This document shows, piece by piece, positions 2,726 through 45,895 of a DNA stretch of 64,000 nucleotides. Source of the stretch: an uncultured Actinomycetes bacterium. GTDB lineage: Bacteria > Actinomycetota > Acidimicrobiia > IMCC26256 > PALSA-555. Position 1 is the stretch's first letter; each line of letters starts with the position of its first letter. A model generated the notes under the pieces. It worked only from the letters and a program-made list of their open reading frames with translations. It had not been told where the DNA came from and ran no database searches. The translations under genes and the position numbers were made by a program. The stretch is from positions 474,060-538,059 of the forward strand of contig CAWGDC010000006.1 in the NCBI GenBank assembly GCA_963821325.1, written 5' to 3'.

Positions 2726-2743
2726 GACGGTCACACCCCGTCC

Positions 2744-3755: not shown

Positions 3756-3757
3756 CC

Positions 3758-4658: not shown

Positions 4659-4716
4659 CCCTGTCACACCCGCGGGCGACGCTCCGGTGGTGCGCCCGCC
4701 CGTTCTCCCCATGCCT

Positions 4717-4741
4717 GGGGATGACCAGCCCCGTCATCCCC
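4717..4741 (+). terminator. GC-rich hairpin after rplI (GGGGATGAC-cagcccc-GTCATCCCC)
   Basis: Read directly: a perfect 9-bp stem with a 7-nt loop lies 59 nt after the rplI stop, and a TTTT run follows about 15 nt downstream. The terminator role is inferred. Confidence 0.4.
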
Positions 4742-4855: not shown

Positions 4856-6211
4856 GTGGTGCAGGCGCTCGAACCAGTGCGGCGCTCCGGGCGCGTCCCG
4901 CCGCACAACCTCGAAGCCGAAGAATCCCTGCTCGGCGCGATGCTGCTCACCCGCGACGCCGTCACCGCCGCCGTCGAGACCGGCGTCGACGCCGGCGACT
5001 TCTACAAGCCGGCCCACGGCCACGTCTTCGAAGCCGTCCTCACCCTCTACGGCCAAGGCGAGCCGATCGACCCCGTCACCGTCGCCGAGGAGCTCCGACG
5101 CGCCGACCTGCTCGAAACCCTCGGGGGCCGCCCGACACTGCTGCGCCTCCAAGCTGCGACCCCCGCCTCGGCGAACGCCAGCCATTACGCCAAGATCGTC
5201 AACGAGCTCGCGCTGCTGCGCCGCCTCATCGGCGTGGCCGGGGACATCGCCGAGATGGGCTACGACGACTCCCAAGACGTCGTCGAGACCATCGACCGCG
5301 CCGAAGCGCTCGTCTTCGAGGTCGCGGAGCACCGCGTCGCCGAGTCCATGGTCAAGATGTCCGACGCGCTGCAAGACACGCTCGACGAGCTCGAAGCGCT
5401 CTACGCGAGCACCGGCGAGATCACCGGAGTGCCGACCGGCTACACCGACCTCGACCGGCTCCTCCTTGGTCTCCAGCCCTCGAACCTCGTGGTGGTCGCA
5501 GCCCGCCCCGGCGCCGGCAAGACGAGCCTGGCGCTCGGCGCCGCCGCGAACGTCGCGATGGTGTCCCGCAAGCCCGTCCTCTTCTTCTCGATGGAGATGG
5601 GCACGCTCGAGCTCACGAAGCGGCTCCTGGCCGGCGAAGCGCGCGTCGACGCCCGACGCCTCCAGACCGGCAACATCCCCGAGCAGGACTGGACCCGCCT
5701 CAGCCACGCGGTCGGTCGCCTCGCCGAGGCCCCCCTCTTCATCGACGACAACCCGCACTGCACGGTCATGGAGATGCGAGCCAAAGCCCGACGCACCAAG
5801 GCCAAGCACGGCGACCTCGGTCTCGTCGTGGTCGACTACCTACAGCTCATGACCCCGATGGGCAAGCGGGCCGAGAACCGCCAGGTCGAGGTCGCCGAGA
5901 TCTCCCGCGGCTTGAAGATCCTGGCCCGCGAGCTGCACTGCCCGGTCATGGCCTGCTCGCAGCTGAACCGCCAGCTCGAGTACCGGCAGGACAAGCGGCC
6001 GATGCTCGCCGACCTCCGCGAGTCCGGCTCCCTCGAGCAGGACGCCGACGTCGTCGCCTTCATCTACCGCGACGACATCTACAACCCGGACTCCGACCAG
6101 CGCGGCACCGCGGAGATCATCGTCGCCAAGCACCGCAACGGACCCACCGGCACCACCCGGCTCGCGTTCGTCGACCGGCTGACGAAGTTCGCCGACATGG
6201 CGCCCGACTAG
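4856..6211 (+). CDS. dnaB: replicative DNA helicase DnaB
   Basis: ORF 4856..6211, 451 aa. It has PPHNLEAEESLLGAML, Walker A GARPGAGKTS, and the SQLNR and ADVV motifs. Its length argues against an intein. Confidence 0.95.
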   Translation: MVQALEPVRRSGRVPPHNLEAEESLLGAMLLTRDAVTAAVETGVDAGDFYKPAHGHVFEAVLTLYGQGEPIDPVTVAEELRRADLLETLGGRPTLLRLQAATPASANASHYAKIVNELALLRRLIGVAGDIAEMGYDDSQDVVETIDRAEALVFEVAEHRVAESMVKMSDALQDTLDELEALYASTGEITGVPTGYTDLDRLLLGLQPSNLVVVAARPGAGKTSLALGAAANVAMVSRKPVLFFSMEMGTLELTKRLLAGEARVDARRLQTGNIPEQDWTRLSHAVGRLAEAPLFIDDNPHCTVMEMRAKARRTKAKHGDLGLVVVDYLQLMTPMGKRAENRQVEVAEISRGLKILARELHCPVMACSQLNRQLEYRQDKRPMLADLRESGSLEQDADVVAFIYRDDIYNPDSDQRGTAEIIVAKHRNGPTGTTRLAFVDRLTKFADMAPD

Positions 6212-6341
6212 CCAGACCACGACCCGCCGCCGGTCGCTTGACTCGTTAGAAATCCCTTGGGGCTACTACCTCGAGAGCCTCCGGCGCCTGTGCGCCACCG
6301 GCACCGGCCAACCGTTCCGCCCCGCGACCTGAAGGACCGGC

Positions 6342-7028
6342 GTGCACCAGACCCGACTCGACGAGCCGTCCGACTACCGCGACCGGCGCGAAGCGCTGCG
6401 CCTCGCTGAGATCGAGCTCATGCGCCAGCGCGAGCGCGTCGCCGCGCTCCGCCGCGCCCTGCCTCCCGGCGCGCTCGTCGACGACTACGTCTTCGAGGAA
6501 GGGCCGGCACGCCTCGACGACGGGGACACGCCGACCACCACGGTCCGGCTCACCGAGCTGTTCCGCTCGCCGTCCCGGCCGCTGCTCATCTACCACTTCA
6601 TGTACGGCAAGGCCCAGACCGAGGCCTGCCCGATGTGCACGCTCTGGATCGACGGGTTCAACAGCGTCGCGACCCACCTGGCCCAGAACGCCGACCTCGC
6701 GATCGCGGCCGCCGCCGACGTCCCGACCCTCCGCGCGCACGCGCGGCACCGCGGCTGGGACCGGCTCCGCCTCCTCAGCTGCGCCGGGAGCACCTTCAAG
6801 TACGACCTCGGCAGCGAGGACCCGGACGGCGTCCAGGACTCCACCATCTCGGTCTTCACCCTCGACCCCGACGGACGGCCGCGGCACACCTACACCGCGC
6901 ACCCGACCATGGCGCCCGACATCAACGAGCGAGGCATCGACCTGCTCTCGCCGGTCTGGCACCTCCTCGACCTCACGCCCCAGGGGCGCGGCGACTGGTA
7001 CGCGCGGCTCGAGTACCCGTCCACCTGA
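6342..7028 (+). CDS. DUF899-type thioredoxin-like protein
   Basis: ORF 6342..7028. It contains YRDRREALRLAEIELMRQRERVAALRRALP...DDYVF and a CPMC motif, typical of DUF899. Confidence 0.75.
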   Translation: MHQTRLDEPSDYRDRREALRLAEIELMRQRERVAALRRALPPGALVDDYVFEEGPARLDDGDTPTTTVRLTELFRSPSRPLLIYHFMYGKAQTEACPMCTLWIDGFNSVATHLAQNADLAIAAAADVPTLRAHARHRGWDRLRLLSCAGSTFKYDLGSEDPDGVQDSTISVFTLDPDGRPRHTYTAHPTMAPDINERGIDLLSPVWHLLDLTPQGRGDWYARLEYPST

Positions 7029-7040
7029 GCGGCCGGCGGG

Positions 7041-7604
7041 TCAGTGCTGACCGGGTCGCACGTCCTGCTCTGATCGGTGCCACACCGGGCTGTCGCCCGC
7101 CGTCTCGACGTTGAAGCCGTAGTCGAACGCGAGCGTGCCGCCGAGCGTGCCGCCGAGGACGGTCAGCGCCGCGGCCGCGAGGCTCAGCCCGAGCGCCACC
7201 CCCGGCGTCGAGTGCTGGCCCGGGTACGCGAGGATCCGCAGGGCGACGTTCACCAGGACGAGCGTCGTCACGGTCAGCATCGTGACGGCGTGCGCGTTGG
7301 CCGTCCGGCGGGCCTGGGTCCCGGCCTCCGTCGAGCGCAGCCAGTCCCAGAAGCCGGTGAGCGCGGCGAGGAGCGACACCGCGGCGCCGCCGACGAGCGC
7401 GAAGGTTCCGGCCCGGTAGAAGTCGCGGGCCCACGCGTTCGTGTGCCCGACGACCGAGACGAGGTCGAACCCGGCCACGAGCACGTACGCGCCGATCGGC
7501 ACGTCGGTCAGGGGCGGGTGCAGCGGCTTCCCGGCCCATCCGCGCAGCCCCTTGAAGGCGCGACCGCGCAGGGTGAGCGCCGGGCGGAACGAGAAGTGAC
7601 GCAT
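7041..7604 (-). CDS. DUF2231-like integral membrane protein
   Basis: This is the C-terminal 187 aa of ORF 7041..8606(-), starting at ATG (rc of 7602-7604) with GGAGG upstream. It has the GKPLHPPLTDVPIGAY motif and several TM helices. The remainder of that ORF overlaps the next gene out of frame. Confidence 0.7.
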   Translation of the reverse strand: MRHFSFRPALTLRGRAFKGLRGWAGKPLHPPLTDVPIGAYVLVAGFDLVSVVGHTNAWARDFYRAGTFALVGGAAVSLLAALTGFWDWLRSTEAGTQARRTANAHAVTMLTVTTLVLVNVALRILAYPGQHSTPGVALGLSLAAAALTVLGGTLGGTLAFDYGFNVETAGDSPVWHRSEQDVRPGQH

Positions 7605-7639
7605 CCGGGACCTCCTCGGGCTAGGCCTCGCAGGGTCGT

Positions 7640-8539
7640 TCAGGCGCGGGACATGGCTTGGTCGACGGCTGGGGTCGGCGGCGCCTGCGCGGCGCGAGAC
7701 CGTGCCAGCGCGATGAGTCCGACCAGCATCGCGAGGGCCGAGGCGGCGATGAGGATCCGGTCGCCATTGCCCCGCGCGTGGAGATGCTCCCGCAGGATCA
7801 CCAGTCCGACGACGGCCGCGACGACCGGCTCGGCGACCTCCATCGACGGCAGCGCGGCCGCGAGCGACCCGGCCTGGAGCGCGCTCTGCACCATCACGAG
7901 GCCGCTCAGCGACAGGACGGCGACGCCGTAGAGCTCCCAGTGCCAGAAGATGGAGATCGGGTTCTGACCCACGATGTGGACGACGACCTTCGTCAGCGCG
8001 GCGTTGACCCCGAAGGTCATGCCGCTCGCCAGTCCGAACAGCGTGGCCCGAGCGGGGCCGTGCACGTGGCGGCGGGTCAGCGCCGCGACCCCGACGACGA
8101 CGGCCAGCACCACGAGGGCGGGAGCCCAGGACGACGCCGAGACGGTCACGCGCCCCTCGCTCGGGGAGGCGACGGCGAGGAAGATCGAGAGGCCCGCGCA
8201 GAGCAGCGCGGCGGCGGCGAGGTCGGACTTGAAGAGCCGCCGATCGTTCACCTCGGCGTCGAGCAGCAGCGAGAACAGCAGCCCGAGCGCGCCGAGCGGC
8301 GCGACGACGAGCAGCGCGCCGAACGCCAACGCCGCGGCCTGGGCGCCGTAGCCGCCGACATCGGCCGCGAACCCGGCCAGCCAGACGGGGCGGCGAGCCA
8401 GGGTCACGAGCAGCTTGGGCCGCAAGGACTCGTCGGCGGGTGCCTGGGCCGCGACGCGCTGCTCGACGACGTTCGACGTCGCGAACAGCAGCGCGGACGT
8501 GAGGGCCAGCACGATCGCCAGCCCCAAGCTGAAGCTCAC
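7640..8539 (-). CDS. DMT-superfamily (EamA/NIPA-like) polytopic membrane protein
   Basis: ORF 7640..8629(-). The hydrophobic repeat structure has about 9-10 TM helices. GTG at 8539 (VSFSLGLAIVLAL...) is chosen as start. The family call is tentative. Confidence 0.55.
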   Translation of the reverse strand: MSFSLGLAIVLALTSALLFATSNVVEQRVAAQAPADESLRPKLLVTLARRPVWLAGFAADVGGYGAQAAALAFGALLVVAPLGALGLLFSLLLDAEVNDRRLFKSDLAAAALLCAGLSIFLAVASPSEGRVTVSASSWAPALVVLAVVVGVAALTRRHVHGPARATLFGLASGMTFGVNAALTKVVVHIVGQNPISIFWHWELYGVAVLSLSGLVMVQSALQAGSLAAALPSMEVAEPVVAAVVGLVILREHLHARGNGDRILIAASALAMLVGLIALARSRAAQAPPTPAVDQAMSRA

Positions 8540-8677
8540 CGCATGTCCCGCACGACCCTCGACACCATCGGGCGCCTTGGTCGGCCGCCCGGTCGGATCC
8601 CCGCACGGTAGCGAACCCGTGGCCCGCACCCCGCCGGTTCAGGGACGCGCGGCCGGGGAACCCACCACCGGCGGGTC

Positions 8678-8920
8678 TCAGTCAGGCGAGTCGCCATCCT
8701 CTGACCCGGGGGTCGGCTGCTCCGGCCGAGCCGACGGATCCGGGCCGTCGTCATCGATGAGCACGTGCAGCTCCTCGTCCAACCGCTCCCGCAACGCCCG
8801 CAGCTCTCGGAGGACCCTGGCCGTCTGGCGCGCGACCTTCGGCAGCTCCTGGGGGCCCAGCACGATCAGGGCGACCGTGAGGACGATGAGGATATGGACG
8901 GGCGACAGCAGGCCCGTCAT
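8678..8920 (-). CDS. tatB: Sec-independent translocase TatB-like protein
   Basis: ATG at 8920. MTGLLSPVHILIVLTVALIVLGPQELPKVARQTARVLRELR is the TatA/B N-terminal TM plus amphipathic helix, and an acidic tail follows. Confidence 0.7.
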   Translation of the reverse strand: MTGLLSPVHILIVLTVALIVLGPQELPKVARQTARVLRELRALRERLDEELHVLIDDDGPDPSARPEQPTPGSEDGDSPD

Positions 8921-15790: not shown

Positions 15791-15937
15791 GCGCGTCTCC
15801 TGGGTGGCCCTCGATTCGCATGCCCCGATCCTGCACCGCCGCGCGCGGCGGGCCCTGAGTAGGCGGTACTCAGTCGGCGAAGGCCGTTCCCCCGAATGGA
15901 GAGGGCGCAGCGGAGCGCTCAACCCGTCGTGCAACGG

Positions 15938-16008
15938 AGCGGGTGACGGGAATCGAACCCGCGTTCTCAGCTTGGGAAGCTGATGTTCTGCCGCTGAACT
16001 ACACCCGC
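15938..16008 (-). tRNA. tRNA-Gly (anticodon CCC)
   Basis: Hand fold of the reverse complement: acceptor GCGGGTG/CACCCGC, anticodon arm TCAGC-TTCCCAA-GCTGA, T-arm GCGGG-TTCGATT-CCCGT. 71 nt, no encoded CCA. Confidence 0.9.
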
Positions 16009-33968: not shown

Positions 33969-36196
33969 GTGCTGAGCACGGAGCCGCTGCACCGGGCGCT
34001 CGGCCTCACCGACGAGGAGCTGGCGGCCATCGTCGAGCTCCTGGGGCGGGACCCGTCCGAGCTCGAGCTCGCCATGTACGCCGTGCTGTGGTCCGAGCAC
34101 TGCTCGTATAAGTCCTCGAAGGTGCACCTCCGCCGACTGGCGAGCGACGCCCCCTGGGTGCTCGTCGGACCCGGGGAGGGCGCCGGCGTGATCGACGTCG
34201 GCGACGGGCTGGCCGTCGCCGTGCGGATCGAGAGCCACAACCACCCGTCGGCCGTCGAGCCCTACCAGGGGGCCGCCACCGGCGTCGGCGGCATCATCCG
34301 CGATGTCTTCTCCATGGGCGCCCGACCGATCGCGCTGATGGACCCGCTGTGCTTCGGGCCGCTCGATCAGCCCCGCAGCCGGTACCTCTGCGAGCAGGTC
34401 GTCGCCGGCATCAGCGGCTACGGCAACGCCGTCGGGGTCCCCACCGTCGGCGGGGAGCTCACCGTCGACGGGTGCTACGCCGGCAACCCGATCGTCAACG
34501 TGCTCTGCCTCGGCATCGCGCCCCACGAGCGGCTCGTCCAAGCGCGCGCCGGCGCCGCGGGGAACCTCGCCGTGCTCCTCGGCTCCTCCACCGGCCGGGA
34601 CGGCATCGGCGGTGCGAGCGTCCTCGCCTCCGCCGGGTTCGCCGCCGACTCCGACGAGAAGCGCCCCGCCGTCCAGGTCGGCGACCCGTTCGAGGAGAAG
34701 CGGCTCATCGAGACGTGCCTGGCGCTCCTCGACGCCGGGCTCGCCGTCGGGATCCAAGACCTCGGGGCCGGTGGGCTGTCGTGCGCCGCGTCGGAGATCG
34801 CCGCGAAGAGCGGCCTCGGCATGGACGTCGACCTCGCCCGGGTCGCCCGGCGCGAGCCGCACATGACGCCCGTCGAGGTCATGACCTCCGAGAGCCAGGA
34901 GCGCATGCTCGCCGTCGTCGAGCCGCGCCACCTCGACGCGATCGTCGCCATCTGCGACCGGTGGGACGTCCGCGCCACGGTCGTGGGACACGTGACCGAC
35001 CGCGGACGCTTCCGGGTCGTCGACGGCGCGTTCGACGGCGGGCCCGACGAGGCGCTCGCCGACGTGCCCGCCGCCAGCCTCGGTGACGGGCCCGTGTACA
35101 CGCGGCCCCTCGCCCGCCCCGACACCCAGGACGGACTGAACGACGCCGACCCGTGGCCGAGCCTGCACGGCGCGTACCCCGACGGCGCCGACCTCGGCCC
35201 CGAGCTGCTCGCCCTGCTCGCCAGCCCGAGCATCGCCGACAAGTCCTGGGTCTTCGGCCAGTACGACCACCAGCTGTTCCTGAACACCGTCGTCGGACCC
35301 GGCGGTGACGCCACCGTGCTGCGCCTCCCCGGCACCCGGCGCGCGCTCGCGCTGAGCACCGACGGGTCGGCCCGCTTCTGTCGTCTCGACCCGCGCGTCG
35401 GTGGACGGCTGGCCGTGCTCGAGGCCGCCCGCAACGTGGCGTGCGTCGGCGCCATTCCCCGCGCCGTCGTCAACTGCCTCAACTTCGGCAACCCGGAGCA
35501 CCCCACGGTGATGTGGCAGTTCAGCGAGGTCGTCGACGGGATCCGCGACGCGTGCCAGGCGCTCGCGTCCCCGTCATCGGCGGCAACGTCAGCTTCTACA
35601 ACGAGTCCCACGGCGCGGACATCGACCCGACCCCCGTGATCGGCGTCCTCGGGCTGCTCGAGCCGCTCGACACCGTGCCGCCCCCCGCCGCGCTCGGCCC
35701 CGGGCAGGCCGTCGTGCTCCTCGGTGCCACCACGCCCGAGCTGGGCGGCTCGGCGTGGGCCACCCGCCACCAGCTCGGCGGCGGACGACCACCCGCCGCC
35801 GACCTCGACGCCGCGGTCGCGGTGCATGACCTCGTGCGCGGCCTCGTCGCCGACCGGTCGGTGCGGGGGGTGCACGACTGCGCCGACGGTGGCCTCGCCG
35901 TCGCCCTCGCCGAGATGGCGATCCACGGAGCGTGCGGGTGCACCGTCACGCCGTCGGCGACCCACCCGGCCGCCGTCGGGTGCTTCTCGGAGTCGGCGTC
36001 GCGGGTCCTGGTGACCGTCGACCCCCCTACCCTCGACGCGTTGCTCGAGCGGGCGGCCGCCGCCGGGGTCGCTGCCGCCGAGCTCGGCTCGGCCGGCGGC
36101 CGCCGCGTCCACGTCGACGGCGCCCTCGACCTCGACGTCGACGACCTGACCCGTGCGTGGCGCGACAGCCTCCCGGCGACGCTCGAGCAGCCCTGA
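33969..36196 (+). CDS. purL: phosphoribosylformylglycinamidine synthase subunit PurL (apparent 1-nt deletion near 35565)
   Basis: ORF 33969..35639 (EHCSYKSSK, ESHNHPS, GGIIRD) continues after ACQAL in ORF 35441..36196 (VPVIGGNVSFYNE...). The span is 2228 nt. Confidence 0.93.
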
Positions 36197-36214: not shown

Positions 36215-38926
36215 TCAGGACTGATGCAGGTAGACGCGACGCTCGTCGCTCGTCAGCGTGCGCACCACGCGGCTCCGGGCGAGCCGCAGCGTCGCGTCGA
36301 TCGGACCGCACTCGAGACAGTGCCAGATCCGCACGGTGCCGTCGCTCGTCGCCGTCGCGAACCGGGTGCCGTCCGGGCTGAACGCCACCGAGGTGACCCG
36401 TGCCGGCTGGCGGAACACGACCGGCGGTGTTCCGGGATCGCGCCAGTCCCACAGCGAGGCGGTTCCGTCGCTGCTCCCGGTGAGGAGCTGGCGGCCGTCA
36501 CGGCTGAACGCCACGCTGTTCAGCGCGTCGGTCTGACGCAGGACGACCGGCGCGGCGTGCGAGTTCCGCAGGTCGTAGACCTGCGCGGTGCCGTCGATGC
36601 TGGCGGTCGCGAGGCGTGCCCCGTCCGGGCTGAAGGCGACGCCCTCGATCGCGCCGCTCTGATAGAGGAAGATCGGCGTGGCGCGCGGGTGCTGCCAGTC
36701 CCACACCCCGGCTGAGGCGTCGAGGCTCGCGGTCCCCAGCCGGGTGCCGCGACGGTTGAACGTGACGCCGACCAAGTCGTCGGTATGACCCGTGAGCACG
36801 ATCGGGGCACGCGCGGGCTGGCGCAGGTCCCAGACCCGTGCGTCGTCGTCGGATCCGGCGGTGGCGAGGTCGTGGCCGTCGGGGCTGAACGCCACGGCGT
36901 ACACGGGTCCCGGCTGCGCGAGCAGGAGAGGCGCGGTCGCGGGGTGGCGCCAGTCCCAGACCGCGGCGAGGCCGTCGATGCTGCCCGTCGCCAGGCGCGT
37001 CCCGTCGGGGCTGAACGCCACCCCGAACACGGTGCCACCCTTCGCGCCGACCACCACGGGGGGCGCGGCCGGGTTGCGCGAGTCCCAGACCGACGCCGTC
37101 CCGTCGAAGTTGGCGCTAGCCACGTGAACGCCGTCCGGGCCGAACGCGACGCTGTTCACCGGCCCGCCGGTCGCCGGCAGCGTCACCGGGTCGGTGTCCG
37201 GTCGTGACCGGTCCCAGACCCGCACCGTCTGGTCCGCGCTCGCGGTCGCGATCTCGGTGCCGTCCGGGCTGCACGCGATGCCCAGGACGGCGTCGGTGTG
37301 GCCGAGCAGCGGCGTCGGGTCGAGTGTCGGGTGGCGCCAATCCCAGAGCTGGGCGACGCGGTCGCTGGCGGCGACGGCCAACGTGTCGTCACGGGTGAAG
37401 GCCACACCGGTCGCGGGGCTCGTCAGGTGGAGCACCACCGGTGGCTGGCCGGGCTGCTGCCACGTCCAGACCGACGCGGTCCCGTCCGCCCCCGCGGTCG
37501 CGACGTGGGCACCGTCCGGGCTGAACGCGACGCCGGCGAGCGCCGCGGTGCTCGGCAGGCTCGTCGGCGTGACCTCGGGAGACCGCCAGCTCCACACGGT
37601 CGCCGTGCCGCCGCTGCCGCTCACGGCGATCTCGTTGCCGTCGGGGCTGAATGCCACCCCCGTGAGACCACTGCCCAGCCGAAGGGCGGTCGGCGGCGTG
37701 CCGGGATGCGCCCAGTCCCACACCGACGCGGTCCCATCCGTGCTCGACGTCGCGAGGAAGCGGCCGTCGGGGCTGAACGCCACCCCGGTGACCGCCCCGC
37801 CGGGCCGGAGCACGGTCGGTGCGCCCGTCGGGTGCCGCCAGTCCCACACCCGCGCGGTGCCGTCGGCTCCGGCGGTGGCGAGCTTCGAGCCGCTGGGGTC
37901 GAACGCGACGGCGTTGACCCCGTTGGTGATTGCCGTGAGCACGACGGGCTTCGCGCTCGGGTGATGCCAGTCCCAGATCCGGGCGGTCCCGTCCGCGCTT
38001 CCGCTGGCGAGATGTGCGCCGTCGGGGCTGAACGCGACGGCGCGGACGATGTCGGTGTGCCCGGTGAGGACCGCCCGCTCGCGGTTCTCGAGGGTCGCCT
38101 GGCGCACGGCGGCCTGCGCCTCGACGGTCGGGCGGGTGTCGTCGGCCTGGAGCGCCAAGAGGAGGCTGAGCTGCGGGTCGGCGTTCAGCTGCGCGTTGGC
38201 GCTCGCCGCCAGCTCCCGTGAGAGCGCGACCTGGGCGGTGTTGTGCGCGTGGACGGCTTGGACCACGGCGACGACGGCCAGCGCGGCGATGAGCACCGTC
38301 GCGGTCAACGCGGCCGCCACGACTCGTCGCAGCCGGCCGGTCGCGGACTGGCGGCTCACCAGCACGAACCGTCGCTGCGCCGACGTCGGCGCGGGACGGT
38401 GGTCGGCGTGGAGCTGCAACGCGGCTTCGGCGTCGCTCAAGTCGGAGCCGCGCAGCACGAGGCTGCGGTCCTCGCCCTTCGTCTCCCACTCCAGGGCCCG
38501 CACGAGGAGCCGGGTGTGGGTCTTCACCCATTCGAGGTCCGTGTCGAGGGCCTCGACGATCCGGGGGAGGCTGTTCTCGCGCTCCCGCTTCGTCCGGCAG
38601 AACACCCAGTTGTGCGATGCGACGGCCGGGGGGAGCCGGCGCTCGCCCGGGCTGCGCACCAGCAGCGGGATGATCCGCTTGTTCAGCTCGACCGCGTGGG
38701 CGAGCTCCTCTCGGCAGACCGGCGAGTCCAACGAGTGCGGGGTGATCACGAACACGAAGGCGCCGGAGCCCTCGATCGCGCCGTGCACCTCGTCTCGCCA
38801 CTCCGCGCTCGGGGGGATCCCCTCCCAGTCGACCCACACGTCGCGGGTCTGGCTCGTGAGCACGTCGACCAGCCAACGCACGAATTGCTGGTCCTCGCGG
38901 GCGTACGAGACGAAGACGTCGCTCAC
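36215..38926 (-). CDS. TIR domain - single TM helix - 14x WD40 repeat protein
   Basis: ORF 36215..39379(-). GTG at 38926 is chosen as start (GGAG 8 nt upstream; the upstream 151 aa are Arg/Pro/Gly junk). The TIR domain is about 38654-38920 (VFVSYAREDQQF...FVFVITPHSLDSPVCREELAHAVELNKRIIPLLV). The TM helix is about 38252-38323. Fourteen WD40 units span 36317-38068. The C-terminal tail reads CLECGP...RTLTSDERRVYL. Confidence 0.85.
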   Translation of the reverse strand: MSDVFVSYAREDQQFVRWLVDVLTSQTRDVWVDWEGIPPSAEWRDEVHGAIEGSGAFVFVITPHSLDSPVCREELAHAVELNKRIIPLLVRSPGERRLPPAVASHNWVFCRTKRERENSLPRIVEALDTDLEWVKTHTRLLVRALEWETKGEDRSLVLRGSDLSDAEAALQLHADHRPAPTSAQRRFVLVSRQSATGRLRRVVAAALTATVLIAALAVVAVVQAVHAHNTAQVALSRELAASANAQLNADPQLSLLLALQADDTRPTVEAQAAVRQATLENRERAVLTGHTDIVRAVAFSPDGAHLASGSADGTARIWDWHHPSAKPVVLTAITNGVNAVAFDPSGSKLATAGADGTARVWDWRHPTGAPTVLRPGGAVTGVAFSPDGRFLATSSTDGTASVWDWAHPGTPPTALRLGSGLTGVAFSPDGNEIAVSGSGGTATVWSWRSPEVTPTSLPSTAALAGVAFSPDGAHVATAGADGTASVWTWQQPGQPPVVLHLTSPATGVAFTRDDTLAVAASDRVAQLWDWRHPTLDPTPLLGHTDAVLGIACSPDGTEIATASADQTVRVWDRSRPDTDPVTLPATGGPVNSVAFGPDGVHVASANFDGTASVWDSRNPAAPPVVVGAKGGTVFGVAFSPDGTRLATGSIDGLAAVWDWRHPATAPLLLAQPGPVYAVAFSPDGHDLATAGSDDDARVWDLRQPARAPIVLTGHTDDLVGVTFNRRGTRLGTASLDASAGVWDWQHPRATPIFLYQSGAIEGVAFSPDGARLATASIDGTAQVYDLRNSHAAPVVLRQTDALNSVAFSRDGRQLLTGSSDGTASLWDWRDPGTPPVVFRQPARVTSVAFSPDGTRFATATSDGTVRIWHCLECGPIDATLRLARSRVVRTLTSDERRVYLHQS
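36317..38068 (-). repeat. intragenic tandem array of 14 WD40-coding units (126-129 nt period)
   Basis: Seen in translation: VAFSPDG is exact in 8 of 14 units, and DGTA..W.W-like strands occur in most units. Confidence 0.85.
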
Positions 38927-39242
38927 CCGCGCCGCTCCCGCGACCCAGAGCGAGGGATCGGCACGCGAGCCGGCGGTGCCTGACGCGCGGTGCTCGACGC
39001 CCACGACGACCGCGGGACGTCTCCCCGTGCCTCCCTGCCCACGGCGACCATCTTGGTCGGCGCCGCCGCGCGCCGGCCCGCAGGTGGTTGTCTCGTCGGT
39101 GGGCGTGCGGGAGACTGCGCCCGGCACGAGGGCCGGGCGGCACGGCGGGCGGCGTCGTCCGCCTCGACGTGGGACCGTCGCCGGGGTGGCGGCGGCCGCG
39201 GGGCGCGGCCGAGCAGCAGGTCGGTGGGGGAGCGAGGCCACG

Positions 39243-40727
39243 GTGAGCACCAAGCAGGAGCTCGACGGTGAGCTCCAGAAGGAGCGAGCCCGGATCCGCG
39301 GCGTGGCGATCCGCAGCACGGACATGTCCCGCCAGCTCGACGTCTTTCTCGCCTGCGCGGTCGGCGGCGTCCTCGGCAACCGGTTCTTCTTGGTCTTGAC
39401 CGGCTATCCCCAGGTCGGGAACGGCACGCTCCACATCTCCCATGCCATCTGGGGCGGGCTCATGATGCTGACGGCGCTGGTCATCGCCATCTCGTACATC
39501 TCGCCCGCCGCCCGCGGGGTGGTGGCCGTCCTCGGCGGCGCCGGATTCGGATGGTTCGTCGACGAGATCGGGAAGTTCATCACCCGGGACGTCAACTACT
39601 TCTTCAAGCCGACGCTGGCGCTCATCTACTCGGTGTTCGTGGCGATGTACCTCGTGTTCCGTTCCCTCGAGCGGCGTCACTACCGGCCCGAGGAGGCCAC
39701 GCTCAACGCCCTCGAGGCCATCAAGTCGGCCGCGCTCGGGCGCCTCGACGAGCCGGCGCGGCTGCGGGCGCTGGCCCGGCTCGACGAGACGACGGACGTG
39801 CAGCCCCTCGCCTCCCACGTGCGCGAGCTGCTGCAGGCGGTGCCGACCATCGCAACGCCACCGCAGGGCCGGTGGCACGGGCTGATGTATCGAGCCCTGG
39901 GCGTCTACGAGCGCTGGACCGTCCGACGAGGCTTCACGTTCGTCGTGACCACGTTCTTCGTGGTCCTGGCGAGCTTCGACGTCGCCCAGATCGGCGCGCT
40001 GTACCTCGCCGACACCCGGCTGCACACGTTCTCGCAGTGGGCGACGGCCGGGTCCGCGGTCTTCTCGCTGGCCCTCGTCGTGGTCGGCGCGTGTCTCCTC
40101 CCCCGAGCCCGTCTCACCGCGTTCCGCTGGTTCGAGGCGGGCGTGCTCGTCTCGATCTTCGTCACCCAGGTGTTCCTCTTCGCCGACCGGCAGCTCGCCG
40201 CGGTGCTCAACCTGTTCGTGGCGATCCTCGTGTGGCTCGGCCTGCGCTCGGCGATCCGCCTGGAGGTGCTCGCCCGCGGCGTCCACGAGTCGTATCGGGA
40301 GCGGCGCCGCGCCACGCTGTCCCCCGGGGACTCGGCGCTCGCCGACTGGGACGAGCTCCCGGAGACGCTGCGCGCCTCGAACCGCGATCAGGCGGCCGAC
40401 TTCGTCGCGAAGCTCGAGGCGGTGCAGTGCGGCGTCGTGCGCTACGGAGGCGGCGACCCACCCCCCTTCGTGTTCACGCCCGTGGAGGTGGAGGTCATGG
40501 CTCGGCTCGAGCACGAGCGGTGGGTCGCCGAGCGGACCCGCCAGGGCTGGCGTCTGGGCTCCGACCGCGACCCGGTCGCCAAGACCACCCCGTATCTCGT
40601 CGACTGGAAGGACCTCACCGAGGCCGTCCGCGACCTCGACCGCGACGCCGTGCGGGAGATGCCCAGCCAGCTGGCCCGACGCGGCCTCGCCGTGGTCCGG
40701 CTGGAAACCAGCCCCGCCGCCGGCTGA
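39243..40727 (+). CDS. polytopic (about 8 TM) membrane protein with C-terminal RyR domain
   Basis: In the frame of ORF 38049..40727. GTG at 39243 follows GGAGCGAGG; ATG at 39324 is an alternative start. The hydrophobic helices fall into two groups of four. The C-terminal region (about 40263-40682) has HESYRERR...WDELPETLRASNRDQA and MARLEHERWVAERTRQGWRLGSDRDPVAKTTPYLVDWKDLTEAVRDLDRDAVR, which is the RyR (PF02026-type) signature. Confidence 0.75.
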   Translation: MSTKQELDGELQKERARIRGVAIRSTDMSRQLDVFLACAVGGVLGNRFFLVLTGYPQVGNGTLHISHAIWGGLMMLTALVIAISYISPAARGVVAVLGGAGFGWFVDEIGKFITRDVNYFFKPTLALIYSVFVAMYLVFRSLERRHYRPEEATLNALEAIKSAALGRLDEPARLRALARLDETTDVQPLASHVRELLQAVPTIATPPQGRWHGLMYRALGVYERWTVRRGFTFVVTTFFVVLASFDVAQIGALYLADTRLHTFSQWATAGSAVFSLALVVVGACLLPRARLTAFRWFEAGVLVSIFVTQVFLFADRQLAAVLNLFVAILVWLGLRSAIRLEVLARGVHESYRERRRATLSPGDSALADWDELPETLRASNRDQAADFVAKLEAVQCGVVRYGGGDPPPFVFTPVEVEVMARLEHERWVAERTRQGWRLGSDRDPVAKTTPYLVDWKDLTEAVRDLDRDAVREMPSQLARRGLAVVRLETSPAAG

Positions 40728-43682: not shown

Positions 43683-43704
43683 GCGCCGTCTCGAGCTGGT
43701 CCGG

Positions 43705-43777
43705 TGGCCGGGGCCGGCGTCGATCCGGCGACCCCGCGCTTTTCAGGCGCGTGCTCTGCCAACTGAGCTACCCGGCC
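43705..43777 (-). tRNA. tRNA-Phe (anticodon GAA)
   Basis: Hand fold: acceptor GGCCGGG/CCCGGCC, D-arm GCTC-AGTTGGCA-GAGC, anticodon arm CGCGC-CTGAAAA-GCGCG, T-arm GCCGG-ATCGACG-CCGGC (A at position 54). Confidence 0.88.
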
Positions 43778-43801
43778 GCGTCGACGCCGCAGCGTCGTCG
43801 G

Positions 43802-43876
43802 CGGTCCTGACGGGATTTGAACCCGCGGCCTCCGCCTTGACAGGGCGGCGTGCACTCCAAACTGCACCACAGGACC
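43802..43876 (-). tRNA. tRNA-Asp (anticodon GTC)
   Basis: Hand fold: acceptor GGTCCTG/CAGGACC, anticodon arm CCGCC-CTGTCAA-GGCGG, T-arm GCGGG-TTCAAAT-CCCGT. Confidence 0.92.
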
Positions 43877-43903
43877 TCGAGGAGCGGCGCGTTCGCCGTC
43901 CCG

Positions 43904-43976
43904 TGCCCCCAGGGGAATTCGAATCCCCGTTACCGCCTTGAAAGGGCGGCGTCCTGGGCCACTAGACGATGGGGGC
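43904..43976 (-). tRNA. tRNA-Glu (anticodon TTC)
   Basis: Hand fold: acceptor GCCCCCA/TGGGGGC, anticodon arm CCGCC-CTTTCAA-GGCGG, T-arm GGGGA-TTCGAAT-TCCCC. Confidence 0.92.
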
Positions 43977-44205
43977 TCAGCTCCCCGGAAGGGCACTGCA
44001 TCGTATCAGCGGCGCCCGCCGATCCACCGGGCCCGACATGCACGCGCACGCCGCACCGCGCACCGCGGCGTCGACCTCGGGAGGTGCTGAGCGACGCGAC
44101 GACGGCGCGCCACATGGTCGCGCACCGCGTCGCGGTGTGCCGCCCCGATACCCTGAACGACGGGTGGTGCCGCCGTGTTTGGCGCTACCACACGTCGTCC
44201 ACCTC

Positions 44206-44278
44206 GGGTCGCTAGCTCAACTGGCAGAGCAACGGGCTTTTAACCCGGTGGTTCAGGGTTCGAGTCCCTGGCGGCCCA
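44206..44278 (+). tRNA. tRNA-Lys (anticodon TTT)
   Basis: Hand fold: acceptor GGGTCGC/GCGGCCC (one G-T pair), D-arm GCTC-AACTGGCA-GAGC, anticodon arm ACGGG-CTTTTAA-CCCGG, T-arm CAGGG-TTCGAGT-CCCTG. Confidence 0.92.
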
Positions 44279-45895
44279 CTCGTGCGCAGCGTCGAGCGCG
44301 CACGCATCCCGCCACCTCTCAGGTCGGTGTCGCCGAGCTCGGCGCCGTGTGGTCCCGATCGGCGGTCTCGCTCGTGGGTCCCTCGGTCGAGAGGCGCGCC
44401 GCTTGGGTGACGAGGTAGCGCCGCTCCCGACGTTCGTCGTCCGGGCCGCGGCGGTCCGGAACTCGGCGATCGCGGCCGTGACGAACGTCTCTTGGGATTC
44501 TCCAGCCAGTGCCGTGTCTGGTTGTCACAAGTGGGTGCTGGTGTTGGGGGGTGCTGTTTCGCACGGCTCGTGTGCAGCTTCGAGTGACGCCGGCGCAGCG
44601 TCGACGGCTCGTCGGGTTGTTGCGAGCGGGTGGGGATGTGTGGGCGGCGCTCATCGAGGTGAACGAGGCTCGGTTCCGCCGCCACGCCAGGCCGATCTTC
44701 GGGTATCAGGCGTGGTGTTGCGAGATCGCCGGCGTGGAGGTTGGGGAGCTGTCGGTGGCGGCGATGCGCTCGGTGGTGCGCCGCTACTCGAGCGCCTGCT
44801 GTGAGGTCGCGAAGCGTAAGCGGGCCGGCGAACGGGCCCGCTACCCGCGCCGCAAACGGGGCCTGGTCCCGCTGCGCTGGTCCACCGGCACCTTCAGCGT
44901 CGAGGGTCGGCGGGTGCGCGTATCGATGGCCCAAGGTGTGGCACCGTGCTGGCTGCGGTTGTCCCGCCCGATCCCGTATCCGACCGCGTCGGTGCGTTCG
45001 GTGACCCTGCTGGTCGACGCGGGGCGCCTCGTCCTCGACGTGACCGCCGGCCTCGAGGTCGAGGACCACGACCTGGACCCAACCCGCGTCGCCGGCGTCG
45101 ATCTCGGGATCATCCACCCCATCGCCGCTCGCAGCGCCGAGCAGGCACTGCTGGTCTCGGGGCGGGCCCTGCGCGCCGAAGACCGCCTGCACCTCGCTGA
45201 CACCAAAGCCCGCCACCGCAAGATGGACCCCAGAAAACCCCGACCCGGGCAGCGAGGCTCGCGGCGCTGGCGACAGCTCCGGGCCAAGCAGCGCCGCGCC
45301 GCGGCCGCGAACCAGCGCCGGGTCCGCCAAGCTCACCACGAAGCCGCCCGAACCCTCATCGACTGGGCCATCGCCCAACGCATCGGCACCCTCGTCGTCG
45401 GCGACCCCAAAGGCATCACCACCAAAGATGCCGGGGCGGTGCACAACCGGCGGCTGCGCAGCTGGCGGCGCACGCATCTCATGGGCGCCATCACCGACAA
45501 AGCCGAACGGGCCGGCCTCACCGTCGAACGCGTCAACGAACGCGGCACCTCCAGCACCTGTCCCCACTGCCGTCACCGGGTCCCCAAACCCTCGGGACGC
45601 AACTTCTCGTGTCCCCACTGTGGACACGACGGGCATCGCGACCTCGTCGCCGCCCACAACATCGCCGCCACACGCGGCGGAACCATCACGACCAGACAAG
45701 TGGTCGTGGAGCACCGTCGCGTCGGAACCCCGACCCAGCGACGTGACCGCCGCCGCCACCACATGGACCAGCGTCGGTCCTGCCCGGCCCCGGGCCGCCC
45801 CGCCACCCCCGACGGGGAGTCGCTCGCAGCACACCACGCCTGCGAGGATCAACCAACCCCGCGCCCTACCAGCGCACACGTTGGCTGACGAGGCA
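44279..45895 (+). mobile_element. solo-tnpB IS200/IS605-family (IS1341-like) element; ends not defined (maximal bounds given)
   Basis: The tnpB ORF with no tnpA fills the interval between tRNA-Lys (ends 44278) and the stop of the next gene (45896). Subterminal hairpin candidates lie at 44331-44344, 44429-44489 and 45823-45846. Confidence 0.5.
44551..45888 (+). CDS. tnpB: RNA-guided endonuclease TnpB (IS200/IS605 OrfB family)
   Basis: ORF 44509..45888; GTG at 44551 or 44509. The split RuvC is present: RVAGVDLGIIHP (D), QAHHEAARTLIDWA (E), GHRDLVAAHNIA (D). The zinc ribbon is CPHCRH...CPHCGH. Confidence 0.9.
   Translation: MLFRTARVQLRVTPAQRRRLVGLLRAGGDVWAALIEVNEARFRRHARPIFGYQAWCCEIAGVEVGELSVAAMRSVVRRYSSACCEVAKRKRAGERARYPRRKRGLVPLRWSTGTFSVEGRRVRVSMAQGVAPCWLRLSRPIPYPTASVRSVTLLVDAGRLVLDVTAGLEVEDHDLDPTRVAGVDLGIIHPIAARSAEQALLVSGRALRAEDRLHLADTKARHRKMDPRKPRPGQRGSRRWRQLRAKQRRAAAANQRRVRQAHHEAARTLIDWAIAQRIGTLVVGDPKGITTKDAGAVHNRRLRSWRRTHLMGAITDKAERAGLTVERVNERGTSSTCPHCRHRVPKPSGRNFSCPHCGHDGHRDLVAAHNIAATRGGTITTRQVVVEHRRVGTPTQRRDRRRHHMDQRRSCPAPGRPATPDGESLAAHHACEDQPTPRPTSAHVG

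What the first reader, a model, noticed from the sequence alone, without database searches (positions are those of the whole stretch)
36317..38068. Fourteen highly self-similar WD40 blades predicted to lie outside the membrane: Toll-like-receptor-like logic in inverted order
There are 14 consecutive units of 42-43 aa (126-129 nt period). VAFSPDG is exact in 8 of 14 units, and a DGTA..W.W-type strand occurs in most. The variable residues cluster at the start of each unit (LTGHTDIV, LRPGGAVT, LPSTAALA, LAQPGPVY and others). Established knowledge: highly internally conserved WD40/TPR arrays in fungal and bacterial NLR-like proteins are linked to repeat shuffling and diversifying selection on the binding surface. 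The single TM helix (about 38252-38323) has RLRR on its N-terminal side. By the positive-inside rule this predicts a cytoplasmic TIR and extracytoplasmic propellers (inference).
Basis: partly seen in the sequence, partly recalled or inferred. Interest (0 to 1): 0.55.

Follow-up and report, generated by a model that had tools for sequence, protein, structure and literature searches.

The report
Membrane TIR protein with outside WD40 propellers
This gene encodes a single-pass membrane protein with an enzyme-type TIR domain predicted inside the cell and two seven-bladed WD40 propellers predicted outside; the repeats are ordinary old WD40 blades, but the gene is repeatedly paired with a membrane protein carrying a ryanodine-receptor (RyR) domain, a domain recently shown to bind TIR-made cyclic ADP-ribose signals.

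Summary
One 903-aa gene (38926..36215, minus strand) has a TIR domain, one strongly hydrophobic helix (aa 202-222, RLRR before it) and 14 WD40 units of 42-43 aa, with VAFSPDG exact in 8.

"Highly self-similar" is overstated.
- Units are 45% (protein) and 59% (DNA) identical on average.
- Synonymous sites are saturated, and the longest exact DNA match between units is 24 nt.
- All close orthologues also have 14 units.
- Blades still match best by position in the two orthologues that are 70-74% identical in the N-terminal part.
There is no sign of recent repeat shuffling or gene conversion in this gene.

The topology inference holds as far as sequence rules go. 79 of 80 family members have one hydrophobic segment at the same place, with more K/R on its N-terminal side in 64 of 80. 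The same TM-linker-14-blade-tail cassette also follows Ser/Thr kinases and STAND-type NTPases.

New here: a multi-pass membrane protein with a RyR domain sits next to the TIR gene in the window and in about seven other distinct loci whose outer flanking genes differ. RyR-less paralogues never show this. Other family members sit next to SLOG/SLATT genes.

Best reading: an outside-in, Thoeris-like TIR signalling pair. Nothing has been tested experimentally.

The parts
36215..38926 (-). Whole coding sequence, 903 aa plus stop: TIR, helical domain, TM, linker, 14 WD40 units, C-terminal tail
   Evidence: ORF listing and start-codon scan. The N-terminus MSDVFVSYARED matches homologues. Orthologues are 903-905 aa.
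38567..38917 (-). TIR domain (aa 4-120); E74 is the putative catalytic Glu in the motif SPVCREEL
   Evidence: Pfam TIR_2 E 1.7e-25. AF2 pLDDT is about 88 and Foldseek matches Hydra TRR-2, SARM1, MyD88, SPARTA and AbTir TIRs. E74 is invariant in A1 and A2 and aligns to the SARM1 'hkEI' Glu.
38324..38566 (-). Conserved juxtamembrane helical domain (aa 121-201), motif TDLxWVxxHTRLLxRAxEW...S.LLRG.DL..AE; function unknown
   Evidence: Alignment A1. Helices at 113-128, 131-149 and 160-172 in the AF2 model. Structure hits cover about 125-190 alignment columns, consistent with the TIR part of the model.
38261..38323 (-). Single predicted transmembrane helix (aa 202-222), preceded by GRLRR
   Evidence: KD mean 2.63 and the only such peak in the protein. 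Conserved in 79 of 80 homologues with positive-inside bias. It lies within one continuous predicted helix, aa 182-246.
38072..38260 (-). Post-membrane helical linker (aa 223-285), motif SRELAA...DPQLSLLLA
   Evidence: Conserved in the family and in kinase- and NTPase-linked WD40 cassettes. Helices at 251-264 and 268-284.
37184..38071 (-). WD40 units 1-7 (aa 286-581): first seven-bladed propeller
   Evidence: Unit delimitation. The AF2 model gives four strands per blade, and the only low-confidence stretch is aa 577-581, at the unit 7/8 junction.
36296..37183 (-). WD40 units 8-14 (aa 582-877): second seven-bladed propeller
   Evidence: The best PDB match is 2YMU, a repetitive bacterial propeller protein (E 1e-45, 34% identity).
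36218..36295 (-). C-terminal tail (aa 878-903); with the CLEC motif at aa 870-873 it forms the conserved ending C..C...L..LA..RV.R.LT..E...YL
   Evidence: The same tail occurs in family members and in kinase- and NTPase-linked cassettes. Helices at 876-886 and 893-900.
38927..39242 (.). Shared divergent intergenic region between the TIR gene and the RyR-domain gene
   Evidence: Gene coordinates. Promoters were not analysed.
39243..40727 (+). Neighbouring gene: 494-aa multi-pass membrane protein with a C-terminal RyR domain (domain at about 40488-40685); candidate partner
   Evidence: Pfam RyR E 1.1e-12. PDB sequence matches to RyR1 and RyR3 repeats at E 8e-14. A 99%-identical 494-aa protein exists in the database. 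Paired with TIR-TM-WD40 genes in other loci.

Best explanation
The gene encodes a type II (N-in, C-out) single-pass membrane protein.

Layout:
- In the cytoplasm: an enzyme-type TIR domain with its catalytic-position Glu74, plus a conserved helical juxtamembrane domain.
- One long helix runs through the membrane.
- Outside: a helical linker, two seven-bladed WD40 propellers and a short helical tail.

Proposed mechanism (inferred):
1. An extracytoplasmic ligand binds the propellers.
2. Binding changes the packing or oligomeric state transmitted along the long helix.
3. The cytoplasmic TIR domains come together and convert NAD+ into an ADP-ribose-derived messenger.
4. The RyR domain of the adjacent multi-pass membrane protein reads or destroys that messenger. 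That protein then acts as a membrane effector or as a signal terminator.

The 14 blades are old, structurally constrained WD40 repeats. Their loops evolve fast, but they are not recently homogenised or shuffled.

What is shown: the domain composition, the repeat statistics, the conservation of the hydrophobic segment and its charge bias, the sharing of the cassette, and the gene pairing.
What is inferred: the topology, NADase or signal-generating activity, coupling to the RyR protein, the nature of the ligand, and the biological role (most likely conflict or defence sensing).
For: Domains.

Catalytic Glu: E74 is invariant in A1 and A2 and aligns to the SARM1 and Cat1 Glu.

Topology:
- There is a single hydrophobic segment, KD mean 2.63.
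- 79 of 80 homologues have one at aa ~200-210. N-flank K+R exceeds C-flank in 64 of 80, and net charge is higher on the N side in 75 of 80.
- AF2 predicts one continuous helix, aa 182-246.
- Other C-terminal domains after the same TM include SH3_3 and FGE-sulfatase.
- 108 of the 120 nearest WD40 arrays have one hydrophobic segment 80-140 aa before blade 1, behind kinase, P-loop or TIR modules. They share the same linker and tail.

Repeats.

Partner:
- The RyR-TM gene is adjacent in the window.
- It is adjacent in L004 (convergent) and in L083/L084/L098, L085, L086 and L088 (divergent).
- It is 1.9 kb from the TIR N-terminal match, on the opposite strand, in L095/L096. The layout fits a convergent, adjacent pair, but the gene between was not read out.
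- RyR-domain genes lie near the TIR gene in L069/L072.
- Where flanking genes were examined, those outside the pair differ from locus to locus.
- 0 of 59 RyR-less loci from the metagenome scan carry a TIR gene (most are short contigs), and two RyR-less paralogues with long flanks also lack one.
- Phage RyR-domain proteins bind or cleave 2'cADPR and 3'cADPR made by TIRs (PMC13232231).
- Other family members have LSDAT_prok SLOG and SLATT genes directly upstream. TIR plus SLATT is type VII Thoeris, which signals with cADPR (bioRxiv 10.64898/2025.12.03.692087).
Against: - No topology predictor or experiment was available. The prediction rests on hydropathy and the positive-inside rule.
- C-flanks also carry K/R (mean 2.9).
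- Canonical WD40 propellers are mostly known from the cytoplasm.
- PADLOC gives only weak TIR-level hits to ThsB models (E 1.7e-9), and NCBIfam gives a Thoeris ThcB4 hit far below its cut-off.
- The two closest relatives whose wider genome was examined keep the RyR-TM gene elsewhere on the chromosome, not next to the TIR gene (L082 in the genome of L006, L087 in the genome of L003). L005 has no RyR gene on its contig.
- The His of the RyR 'K.HP' motif is Thr in this protein, so ligand specificity may differ.
- The gene pair sits inside a purine-biosynthesis cluster at normal G+C, not in a recognisable defence island.
Confidence: 0.55

Rival explanations
1. Same protein and same outside-in layout, but the role is not immunity. 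It would be an envelope, developmental or cell-cell signalling receptor, like the Ser/Thr kinases that carry the same TM-linker-14-blade cassette. The TIR would make a regulatory nucleotide.
For: The cassette is shared with about 30 kinase and 36 P-loop proteins among the 120 nearest arrays. The gene lies in a housekeeping pur cluster at normal G+C. There is a stable 14-blade count and vertical-looking conservation in Acidimicrobiia.
Against: Recurrent partners in the family (SLOG, SLATT, RyR, TPR-S plus cyclase) are those of conflict systems. The WD region diverges faster than the N-terminal module (55% against 74% with L006).
Confidence: 0.22
2. The TIR is a self-contained NAD+-depleting suicide effector. 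The RyR-domain neighbour is not a signal receiver but unrelated, or a safety device that degrades stray product.
For: Many bacterial TIRs act by NAD+ depletion (established knowledge). The founding RyR-domain enzyme RyDEP is a glycosidase that destroys cADPR isomers (PMC13232231), and the His/Trp of the 'EHERW' motif are kept here. The pairing is absent in L003, L005 and L006.
Against: The RyR domain is fused to a conserved 7-8-TM domain, which looks more like an effector than a soluble hydrolase. Pairing is specific to the RyR-fused form.
Confidence: 0.15
3. The hydrophobic helix does not span the membrane, for example because it is an oligomerisation core or a peripheral anchor. The WD40 propellers would then be cytoplasmic sensors, as in STAND/Apaf-1-like proteins.
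For: WD40 sensors of STAND proteins are cytoplasmic (Apaf-1 is among the fold matches). The same cassette follows P-loop NTPases, where a membrane between switch and sensor is unusual. One homologue (P0115) lacks the segment and carries a SpoIIE phosphatase.
Against: The 21-22 apolar residues have KD means of 2.3-3.0 and are flanked by Arg clusters in 79 of 80 members. Typical extracytoplasmic domains (SH3_3, FGE-sulfatase) replace the WD40 region in homologues. Kinase-TM-sensor is the standard receptor-kinase layout (established knowledge).
Confidence: 0.1
4. One reading: the blades are highly internally conserved repeats undergoing shuffling or concerted evolution, with diversifying selection, as in fungal NLRs.
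For: Within-protein unit identity (0.45) exceeds identity to units of distant family members (0.33-0.38). Some members are much more repetitive (L011 0.65, L007 0.54), so homogenisation or re-amplification does occur somewhere in the family.
Against: For this gene: 59% nt identity between units, saturated synonymous sites, longest exact match 24 nt, 14 units in every close orthologue, and positional orthology kept with L006 and L004.
Confidence: 0.05

Closest known systems
Thoeris anti-phage systems (ThsB TIR plus effector), especially type VII (TIR + SLATT, cADPR signal)
   Same: An enzyme-type TIR with a conserved catalytic-position Glu. The gene is paired with a protein carrying a domain known to bind TIR-made ADPR signals (RyR here; SLOG/SLATT in other family members).
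   Different: Here the TIR is fused through a membrane helix to a predicted extracytoplasmic double propeller. In the Thoeris systems I read about, the sensor was not described as sitting outside the cell. The partner (multi-TM plus RyR) is not named in the main text of the 2025 survey (0 occurrences of 'RyR'). Only weak matches to PADLOC and NCBIfam Thoeris models. No defence phenotype is known.
Animal Toll-like receptors
   Same: A repeat-built ectodomain, a single membrane helix and a cytoplasmic TIR. The TIR fold matches Hydra TRR-2 and the TLR1, TLR6 and TLR15 TIRs.
   Different: The ectodomain is WD40 propellers, not LRRs. The order is reversed (type II, not type I). The TIR looks catalytic rather than an adaptor-recruiting scaffold. 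There is no evidence of common descent for the whole architecture.
Bacterial WD40 Ser/Thr kinases and nSTAND/AAA_16-WD40 proteins of Actinomycetota, Cyanobacteria and Chloroflexota
   Same: They carry the same TM helix, the SR(E/Q)LAA..DPELSLLLA linker, 14 blades and the C..C...LT..E..YL tail. They are 31-43% identical over the whole 678-aa region.
   Different: The N-terminal cytoplasmic module is a kinase or an NTPase instead of a TIR.
2YMU, deposited as 'a highly repetitive propeller structure', and the 'highly repetitive' WD40 proteins of Hu et al. 2017
   Same: Bacterial WD40 propeller with the FSPDG...DGT.R.WD consensus. It is the best structural match (E 1e-45, 34% identity).
   Different: Those proteins have near-identical blades (>=0.7 internal identity in Hu's HR class). 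This one reaches only 0.40-0.45, with saturated synonymous sites.
Phage RyDEP and other RyR (PF02026) domain proteins
   Same: The neighbouring gene's C-terminal domain is a clear PF02026 member and keeps the H..W motif. RyDEP-family domains bind or cleave 2' and 3'cADPR.
   Different: It is host-encoded and fused to a 7-8-TM domain. The conserved 'K.HP' His is Thr. It is paired with the TIR gene rather than opposing it.

Membership tests
TIR domain (Pfam TIR_2, PF13676) | Sequence match above the curated threshold | tested here: met
   90.3 bits against a cut-off of 28, E 1.7e-25, aa 4-120.
TIR domain (Pfam TIR_2, PF13676) | Flavodoxin-like TIR fold | tested here: met
   AF2 pLDDT 87.7. Foldseek TM-score (target-normalised) 0.67-0.83 to TRR-2, SARM1 and MyD88 TIRs.
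Enzymatic (NADase or signal-generating) TIRs | Catalytic Glu in the alphaC region | tested here: met
   E74 is invariant in A1 and A2. It aligns with the Glu of SARM1 'hkEI' and Cat1 'wdEL'. The sequence alignments are weak (E 0.02-0.06).
Enzymatic (NADase or signal-generating) TIRs | NAD+ cleavage or cyclisation activity | not testable with these tools
   Needs biochemistry.
WD40 beta-propeller | PF00400 repeats forming four-stranded blades that close into propellers | tested here: met
   E 1.7e-108. 56 strands make 14 blades in the AF2 model, with a break at aa 577-581. Tandem 7+7 propeller proteins such as Aip1 (1NR0) are among the PDB matches.
Highly internally conserved (HIC) or 'highly repetitive' WD40 arrays | Internal unit identity >=0.7 (Hu et al. 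2017), or near-identical DNA units | tested here: not met
   Internal identity level is 0.40, not 0.45. Mean nt identity is 59%.
Highly internally conserved (HIC) or 'highly repetitive' WD40 arrays | Low synonymous divergence or conversion tracts between units; unit-number variation among relatives | tested here: not met
   Same-codon fraction 0.582 against 0.552 expected. Longest exact match 24 nt. 14 units in L003, L004, L005 and L006, and about 14 in the frameshifted L001.
Type II (N-in, C-out) single-pass membrane protein | One hydrophobic segment of about 20 residues, no N-terminal signal peptide, positive charge bias on the N side | tested here: met
   This is rule-based only.
Type II (N-in, C-out) single-pass membrane protein | Experimentally determined location of the C-terminal domain | not testable with these tools
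   No topology predictor (DeepTMHMM, Phobius) or fusion assay was available.
Toll-like receptors | N-terminal LRR ectodomain, TM helix, C-terminal TIR (type I) | tested here: not met
   No LRR was found. The order is reversed and the ectodomain is WD40.
Thoeris | TIR gene next to an effector gene with a domain that binds the TIR product | tested here: inconclusive
   A RyR-domain membrane protein is adjacent and the pairing recurs. Binding is known only for phage RyR-domain proteins.
Thoeris | Match to curated ThsB or Thoeris models | tested here: not met
   PADLOC ThsB hits cover only the TIR core (E 1.7e-9 and weaker). NCBIfam ThcB4 scores 26 bits against a cut-off of 220.
Thoeris | Phage-induced signal production and protection | not testable with these tools
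   Needs experiments.
RyR domain (PF02026), neighbouring gene | Sequence match above threshold and relation to RyR repeats | tested here: met
   48.5 bits against a cut-off of 27.4. PDB RyR1 and RyR3 repeats at E 8e-14.

The most novel reading that the evidence does not exclude
A two-gene transmembrane TIR pathway. A double WD40 propeller outside the membrane detects an external cue, such as a phage particle, an envelope fragment or a neighbouring cell. This switches on a cytoplasmic TIR that makes a cADPR-type messenger. The messenger gates, through its RyR domain, the adjacent multi-pass membrane protein. That would be a host-encoded bacterial counterpart of the disputed cADPR-to-ryanodine-receptor link in animals, and a bacterial receptor with Toll-like layout.
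Probability: 0.25. Interest if true: 0.85.

Novelty: new variant of a known kind. Interest (0 to 1): 0.6.

Why it matters
From my own knowledge, characterised bacterial TIR defence systems sense infection from inside the cell. A large family puts the sensor outside the membrane: 6,973 50%-identity clusters match at E<=1e-30, and 424 loci were found across 185,579 species genomes. That would mean bacteria can start TIR signalling before or without entry of foreign material.

The repeated pairing with a RyR-domain membrane protein gives a concrete, testable candidate for a host use of the RyR domain as a receiver of ADP-ribose-derived signals. This comes only months after phage RyR-domain proteins were shown to bind such signals. 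It therefore also bears on the old question of whether cADPR acts directly on ryanodine-receptor repeats.

The finding as written (self-similar blades) is ordinary. The value lies in the topology and the partner gene.

Tried and rejected
- Tandem Repeats Finder on 35-40 kb found only a 1.9-copy, 73% array, so the DNA periodicity is weak.
- Per-site dN/dS was not computed. Units differ by 41% at the DNA level and the closest intact orthologue shares only 55% aa identity in the WD region, so synonymous sites are saturated. I used the same-codon fraction as a proxy instead.
- Gene-conversion tracts were tested by the longest exact match between units (24 nt, the VAFSPDG motif region). Rejected.
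- The closest homologue P0001 (79%) looked truncated at 286 aa. Its contig (L001) and L003 carry frameshifts, but both still encode about 14 units.
- Conservation of the purL/purF context was tested against L001-L006 and not found.
- SLOG, SLATT and TPR-S-cyclase homologues were searched for in the window. None were found.
- Burroughs et al. 2015 (NAR) could not be retrieved by PMC id or DOI.
- One literature search was wasted on word-start matches.
- Searches for a prior description of TIR-TM-WD40 or TIR plus host RyR-TM pairs found none in the held library. This is not proof of absence.
- AF2 coordinates could not be read in Python, so variable columns were assigned to propeller faces from the standard WD40 strand order, not from the model.


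Full report
THE GENE. The finding lies in one minus-strand ORF. The longest reading (39379..36215) has about 150 Arg/Pro-rich codons that no homologue shares. The GTG at 38926, with GGGAG about 8 nt upstream, gives MSDVFVSYARED..., which is the N-terminus of all homologues. The product is 903 aa. Pfam finds TIR_2 at aa 4-120 (E 1.7e-25) and WD40 across aa ~284-870 (E 1.7e-108). The gene sits between purL (33969..~36196, plus strand, split in two reading frames in this sequence) and a divergently transcribed 494-aa membrane protein with a C-terminal RyR domain (39243..40727, Pfam RyR E 1.1e-12). Downstream of that gene the purF-containing ORF (ending at 42316) follows. G+C is 0.72-0.75 across the region, the same as the flanks.

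CHECKING THE OBSERVATION. Fourteen units of 42 or 43 aa cover aa 286-877 (38071..36296). VAFSPDG is exact eight times. By my count on the alignment, DGTA is exact in 7 units and W.W is present in 9. A single hydrophobic peak (aa 202-222/225, 38323..38252, Kyte-Doolittle 19-residue mean 2.63) is preceded by GRLRR. The similarity of the units is modest, however:
- Mean pairwise identity is 45% for protein and 59% for DNA, with maxima of 64% and 70%.
- Tandem Repeats Finder detects only 1.9 copies at 73%.
- Hu et al. 2017 define 'highly repetitive' as internal identity >=0.7 and 'moderately repetitive' as >=0.4 (PMC5587647). By their rule this protein reaches 0.40 but not 0.45.
- Variable columns are 4-8 and 10 (the loop before strand A), but also 19-20, 25-26, 31 and 36-41, so every loop varies.

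ARE THE BLADES BEING HOMOGENISED OR SHUFFLED? Four tests say no for this gene.
1. At columns where two units have the same amino acid, they use the same codon in 58.2% of cases. The gene's codon usage predicts 55.2%, so synonymous sites between units are saturated.
2. The longest exact nucleotide match between any two units is 24 nt.
3. Unit number is 14 in the close relatives L003, L004, L005 and L006, and about 14 in L001. L003 and L001 are frameshifted assemblies that still carry the array. Fourteen is also the modal number across phyla, and other counts cluster near 7-8 and 20-21.
4. Against the orthologues L006 and L004 (74% and 70% identical in the N-terminal 285 aa), blades at the same position are 55% and 51% identical. 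Blades at different positions are 43% identical, and the best hit is the positional one for 8 of 14 and 5 of 14 blades. Between L006 and L004 the figures are 64% against 42%.

The shared motif is therefore the structural consensus of bacterial WD40 blades held by purifying selection. Two qualifications apply. The WD region diverges faster than the N-terminal module (55% against 74%, 51% against 70%, 44% against 59%). The fastest columns between positional orthologues are 8 and 10 (D-A loop, top face by standard WD40 geometry), 19-20 and 39-41 (bottom loops). Second, across the wider family, within-protein unit identity ranges from 0.30 to 0.65 and exceeds the identity to units of distant members (0.33-0.40). 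So re-amplification or homogenisation has happened in some lineages such as L011, just not recently here.

STRUCTURE. AlphaFold2 on aa 1-285 (10-sequence alignment, pLDDT 87.7) gives a TIR fold and three further helices. It then gives one continuous helix from aa 182 to 246 that contains the hydrophobic segment, followed by two linker helices. Foldseek matches cover about 125-190 alignment columns, consistent with the TIR part. They include Hydra TRR-2, SARM1, MyD88, SPARTA TIR-APAZ and AbTir. The full-length model (21 sequences, pLDDT 86.1) has 56 strands, which is 14 four-stranded blades. The only low-confidence stretch is aa 577-581, at the boundary of units 7 and 8, so it forms two seven-bladed propellers. 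Two short C-terminal helices follow. The best PDB match is 2YMU, deposited as 'a highly repetitive propeller structure' (E 1e-45, 34% identity). Tandem 7+7 propellers and Apaf-1 come next. Glu74 (SPVCREEL) is invariant in both family alignments. It aligns with the Glu of SARM1 'hkEI' and of Cat1. The sequence alignments are weak, but they agree with the fold match.

TOPOLOGY. No predictor was available, so I tested the rule across the family.
- A scan of one genome per species found 424 loci encoding the N-terminal module. The best 80 span Actinomycetota (Acidimicrobiia are closest), Chloroflexota, Cyanobacteria, Verrucomicrobiota and others.
- 79 of the 80 proteins have exactly one strongly hydrophobic segment at aa ~200-210, with mean length 22.
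- K+R in the 15 residues before the segment averages 4.5, against 2.9 after it. The N side has more in 64 of 80, and net charge is higher on the N side in 75 of 80.
- There is a 200-residue folded domain and no signal peptide ahead of it. If the segment spans the membrane, established knowledge of signal-anchor insertion gives TIR inside and C-terminus outside.
- In homologues the WD40 part is replaced by SH3_3 or FGE-sulfatase domains after the same helix. One homologue without the helix carries a cytoplasmic-type SpoIIE phosphatase.
- Most telling, the 120 database proteins closest to aa 226-903 carry Ser/Thr kinase (30), P-loop NTPase (36), TIR (13) or other (41) N-terminal modules. The classes were assigned by sequence motifs. 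108 of the 120 have one hydrophobic segment 80-140 residues before the first blade.
- In the 13 proteins I inspected from these classes, most share the same SR(E/Q)LAA..DPELSLLLA linker and the same C..C...L..LA..RV.R.LT..E...YL tail. Most of the proteins printed have 14 blades.
- Kinase-TM-sensor is the standard layout of bacterial receptor kinases (established knowledge).

The extracytoplasmic location of the propellers is thus a well-supported prediction, but it remains a prediction.

THE NEIGHBOUR AND OTHER PARTNERS. The window's context (purL, TIR gene, RyR gene, purF) is not conserved in relatives. The pairing with the RyR-domain membrane protein is conserved.
- L004 (TIR 70% identical) has a 71%-identical RyR-TM gene immediately downstream, convergent.
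- In a clade whose RyR-TM proteins are 54-57% identical to the window's, the TIR-TM-WD40 gene (N-terminal part 45-47% identical) sits divergently upstream. This holds in L083/L084/L098, L085, L086 and L088.
- L095/L096 carry the TIR N-terminal match 1.9 kb beyond the RyR gene on the opposite strand. The layout fits a convergent, adjacent pair, but the gene between was not read out.
- L069/L072 carry RyR-domain genes within 4 kb. L072 also encodes a second TIR-TM protein, a standalone RyR protein and a TrkA-like protein ending in a RyR domain.
- Where flanking genes were examined, those outside the pair differ from locus to locus.
- The pairing is absent in L082 and L087. These are the genomes of L006 and L003, which keep both genes but apart.
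- RyR-less paralogues of the membrane domain lie in housekeeping contexts, and none of 59 such metagenome loci has a TIR gene, though most are short contigs.
- A 2026 preprint shows that phage RyR-domain (PF02026) proteins bind or cleave the TIR products 2'cADPR and 3'cADPR (PMC13232231).
- The window's RyR domain matches RyR1 and RyR3 repeats (E 8e-14) and keeps the H..W motif, but the His of 'K.HP' is Thr.
- By loop charges, the RyR domain should be cytoplasmic (rough estimate).
- In other family loci the gene directly upstream is a SLATT (DUF4231) gene, in some loci with an LSDAT_prok SLOG gene; the two clusters cover 9 and 5 loci. In 14 loci a ~600-aa TPR-S plus nucleotide-cyclase protein is adjacent or nearby.
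- TIR plus SLATT is type VII Thoeris, which signals with canonical cADPR (bioRxiv 10.64898/2025.12.03.692087).

MECHANISM. The best-supported reading is an outside-in TIR signalling pair.
1. A ligand binds the extracytoplasmic double propeller (inferred).
2. The change is transmitted through the long helix and the juxtamembrane domain (inferred from the model).
3. The TIR domains assemble and convert NAD+ into an ADP-ribose-derived messenger (inferred from the conserved Glu and the family's partners).
4. The RyR domain of the neighbour receives or removes the messenger (inferred from gene pairing and the phage precedent).

Rival readings:
- The same layout, but with a non-immune role.
- A self-contained NAD+-depleting TIR with an unrelated or protective neighbour.
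- A non-spanning helix with cytoplasmic propellers.

COMPARISON AND NOVELTY. TIR plus WD40 proteins and repetitive bacterial WD40 arrays are long known (own knowledge; Hu et al. 2017). Database annotators already call such proteins 'TIR domain-containing protein'. The family is large, with 6,973 50%-identity clusters at E<=1e-30. Some members carry 2-8 tandem TIR-helical modules before the single membrane helix. In the searchable literature I found no description of the predicted outside location of the sensor in a TIR protein. I also found none of the recurrent pairing with a host RyR-domain membrane protein. I therefore rate it a new variant of a known kind (Thoeris-like TIR signalling). The Toll-like-receptor resemblance is one of layout only.

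VERDICT. Interest is 0.6, carried by the topology and the RyR partner rather than by the repeats.

Noticed in passing
window 39243-40727 (+): A divergent neighbour gene encodes a 494-aa protein with 7-8 TM segments and a C-terminal RyR domain (PF02026). It is paired with TIR-TM-WD40 genes in about seven other distinct loci whose outer flanking genes differ where examined. RyR-less paralogues lie in housekeeping contexts without a TIR gene.
   Followed up: yes
L008 4048-5822; L055 5456-5980; L046 3888-5714; L014, L016, L019, L029, L058, L081: In other family members the gene directly upstream of the TIR-TM-WD40 gene is a SLATT (DUF4231) gene, in some loci with an LSDAT_prok SLOG gene (9 and 5 loci in the two clusters). 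This recalls type VII Thoeris (TIR + SLATT).
   Followed up: partly
L048 4198-5952 (-); L011 8716-10530; also L003, L006, L017, L033, L038 and others (14 loci): A ~600-aa protein with TPR-S repeats and a weak adenylate/guanylate cyclase domain recurs next to or near the TIR-TM-WD40 gene, including in the closest relatives that lack the RyR neighbour.
   Followed up: partly
L072 219-8772: One locus holds a second TIR-TM protein with a different ectodomain (219-1946), a standalone 161-aa RyR-domain protein (2143-2628), a TM/TrkA-like protein ending in a RyR domain (2726-4726, minus strand) and the TIR-TM-WD40 gene (5905-8772).
   Followed up: partly
proteins P0241-P0360: The TM-linker-14-blade-tail cassette is shared by Ser/Thr kinases, nSTAND1/AAA_16 P-loop NTPases and other modules (108 of 120 with one hydrophobic segment before blade 1). 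This implies that many STAND-like NTPases have their WD40 'sensor' on the far side of a membrane helix.
   Followed up: partly
proteins P0361-P0510: The best-scoring relatives of the N-terminal module carry 2-8 tandem copies of the TIR-plus-helical unit before a single membrane helix.
   Followed up: partly
window 33969-36196 (+): purL reads in two overlapping frames (33969-35639 and 35441-36196). This means a frameshift near 35.45-35.64 kb, either an assembly indel or a real disruption. Close relatives from long-read MAGs (L001, L003) also show frameshifts in the TIR-WD40 gene.
   Followed up: no
window 39324-40350 (+), alignment A3: The membrane domain of the RyR protein has invariant motifs (GYPQVGNGTLHISHAIWGG and GGxGxGWFVDExGKFITxDVNYFF) and no Pfam or NCBIfam match. 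It belongs to a widespread Acidimicrobiia family of ~340-aa proteins of unknown function.
   Followed up: partly
window 43703-44279 and 15936-16008; 16-28 kb and 52-62 kb: There is a cluster of four tRNA genes (Phe, Asp, Glu, Lys) just downstream of the pur genes, plus a tRNA-Gly at 15.9 kb. Two stretches have lower G+C (0.65-0.70 against about 0.73) and might be acquired DNA.
   Followed up: no
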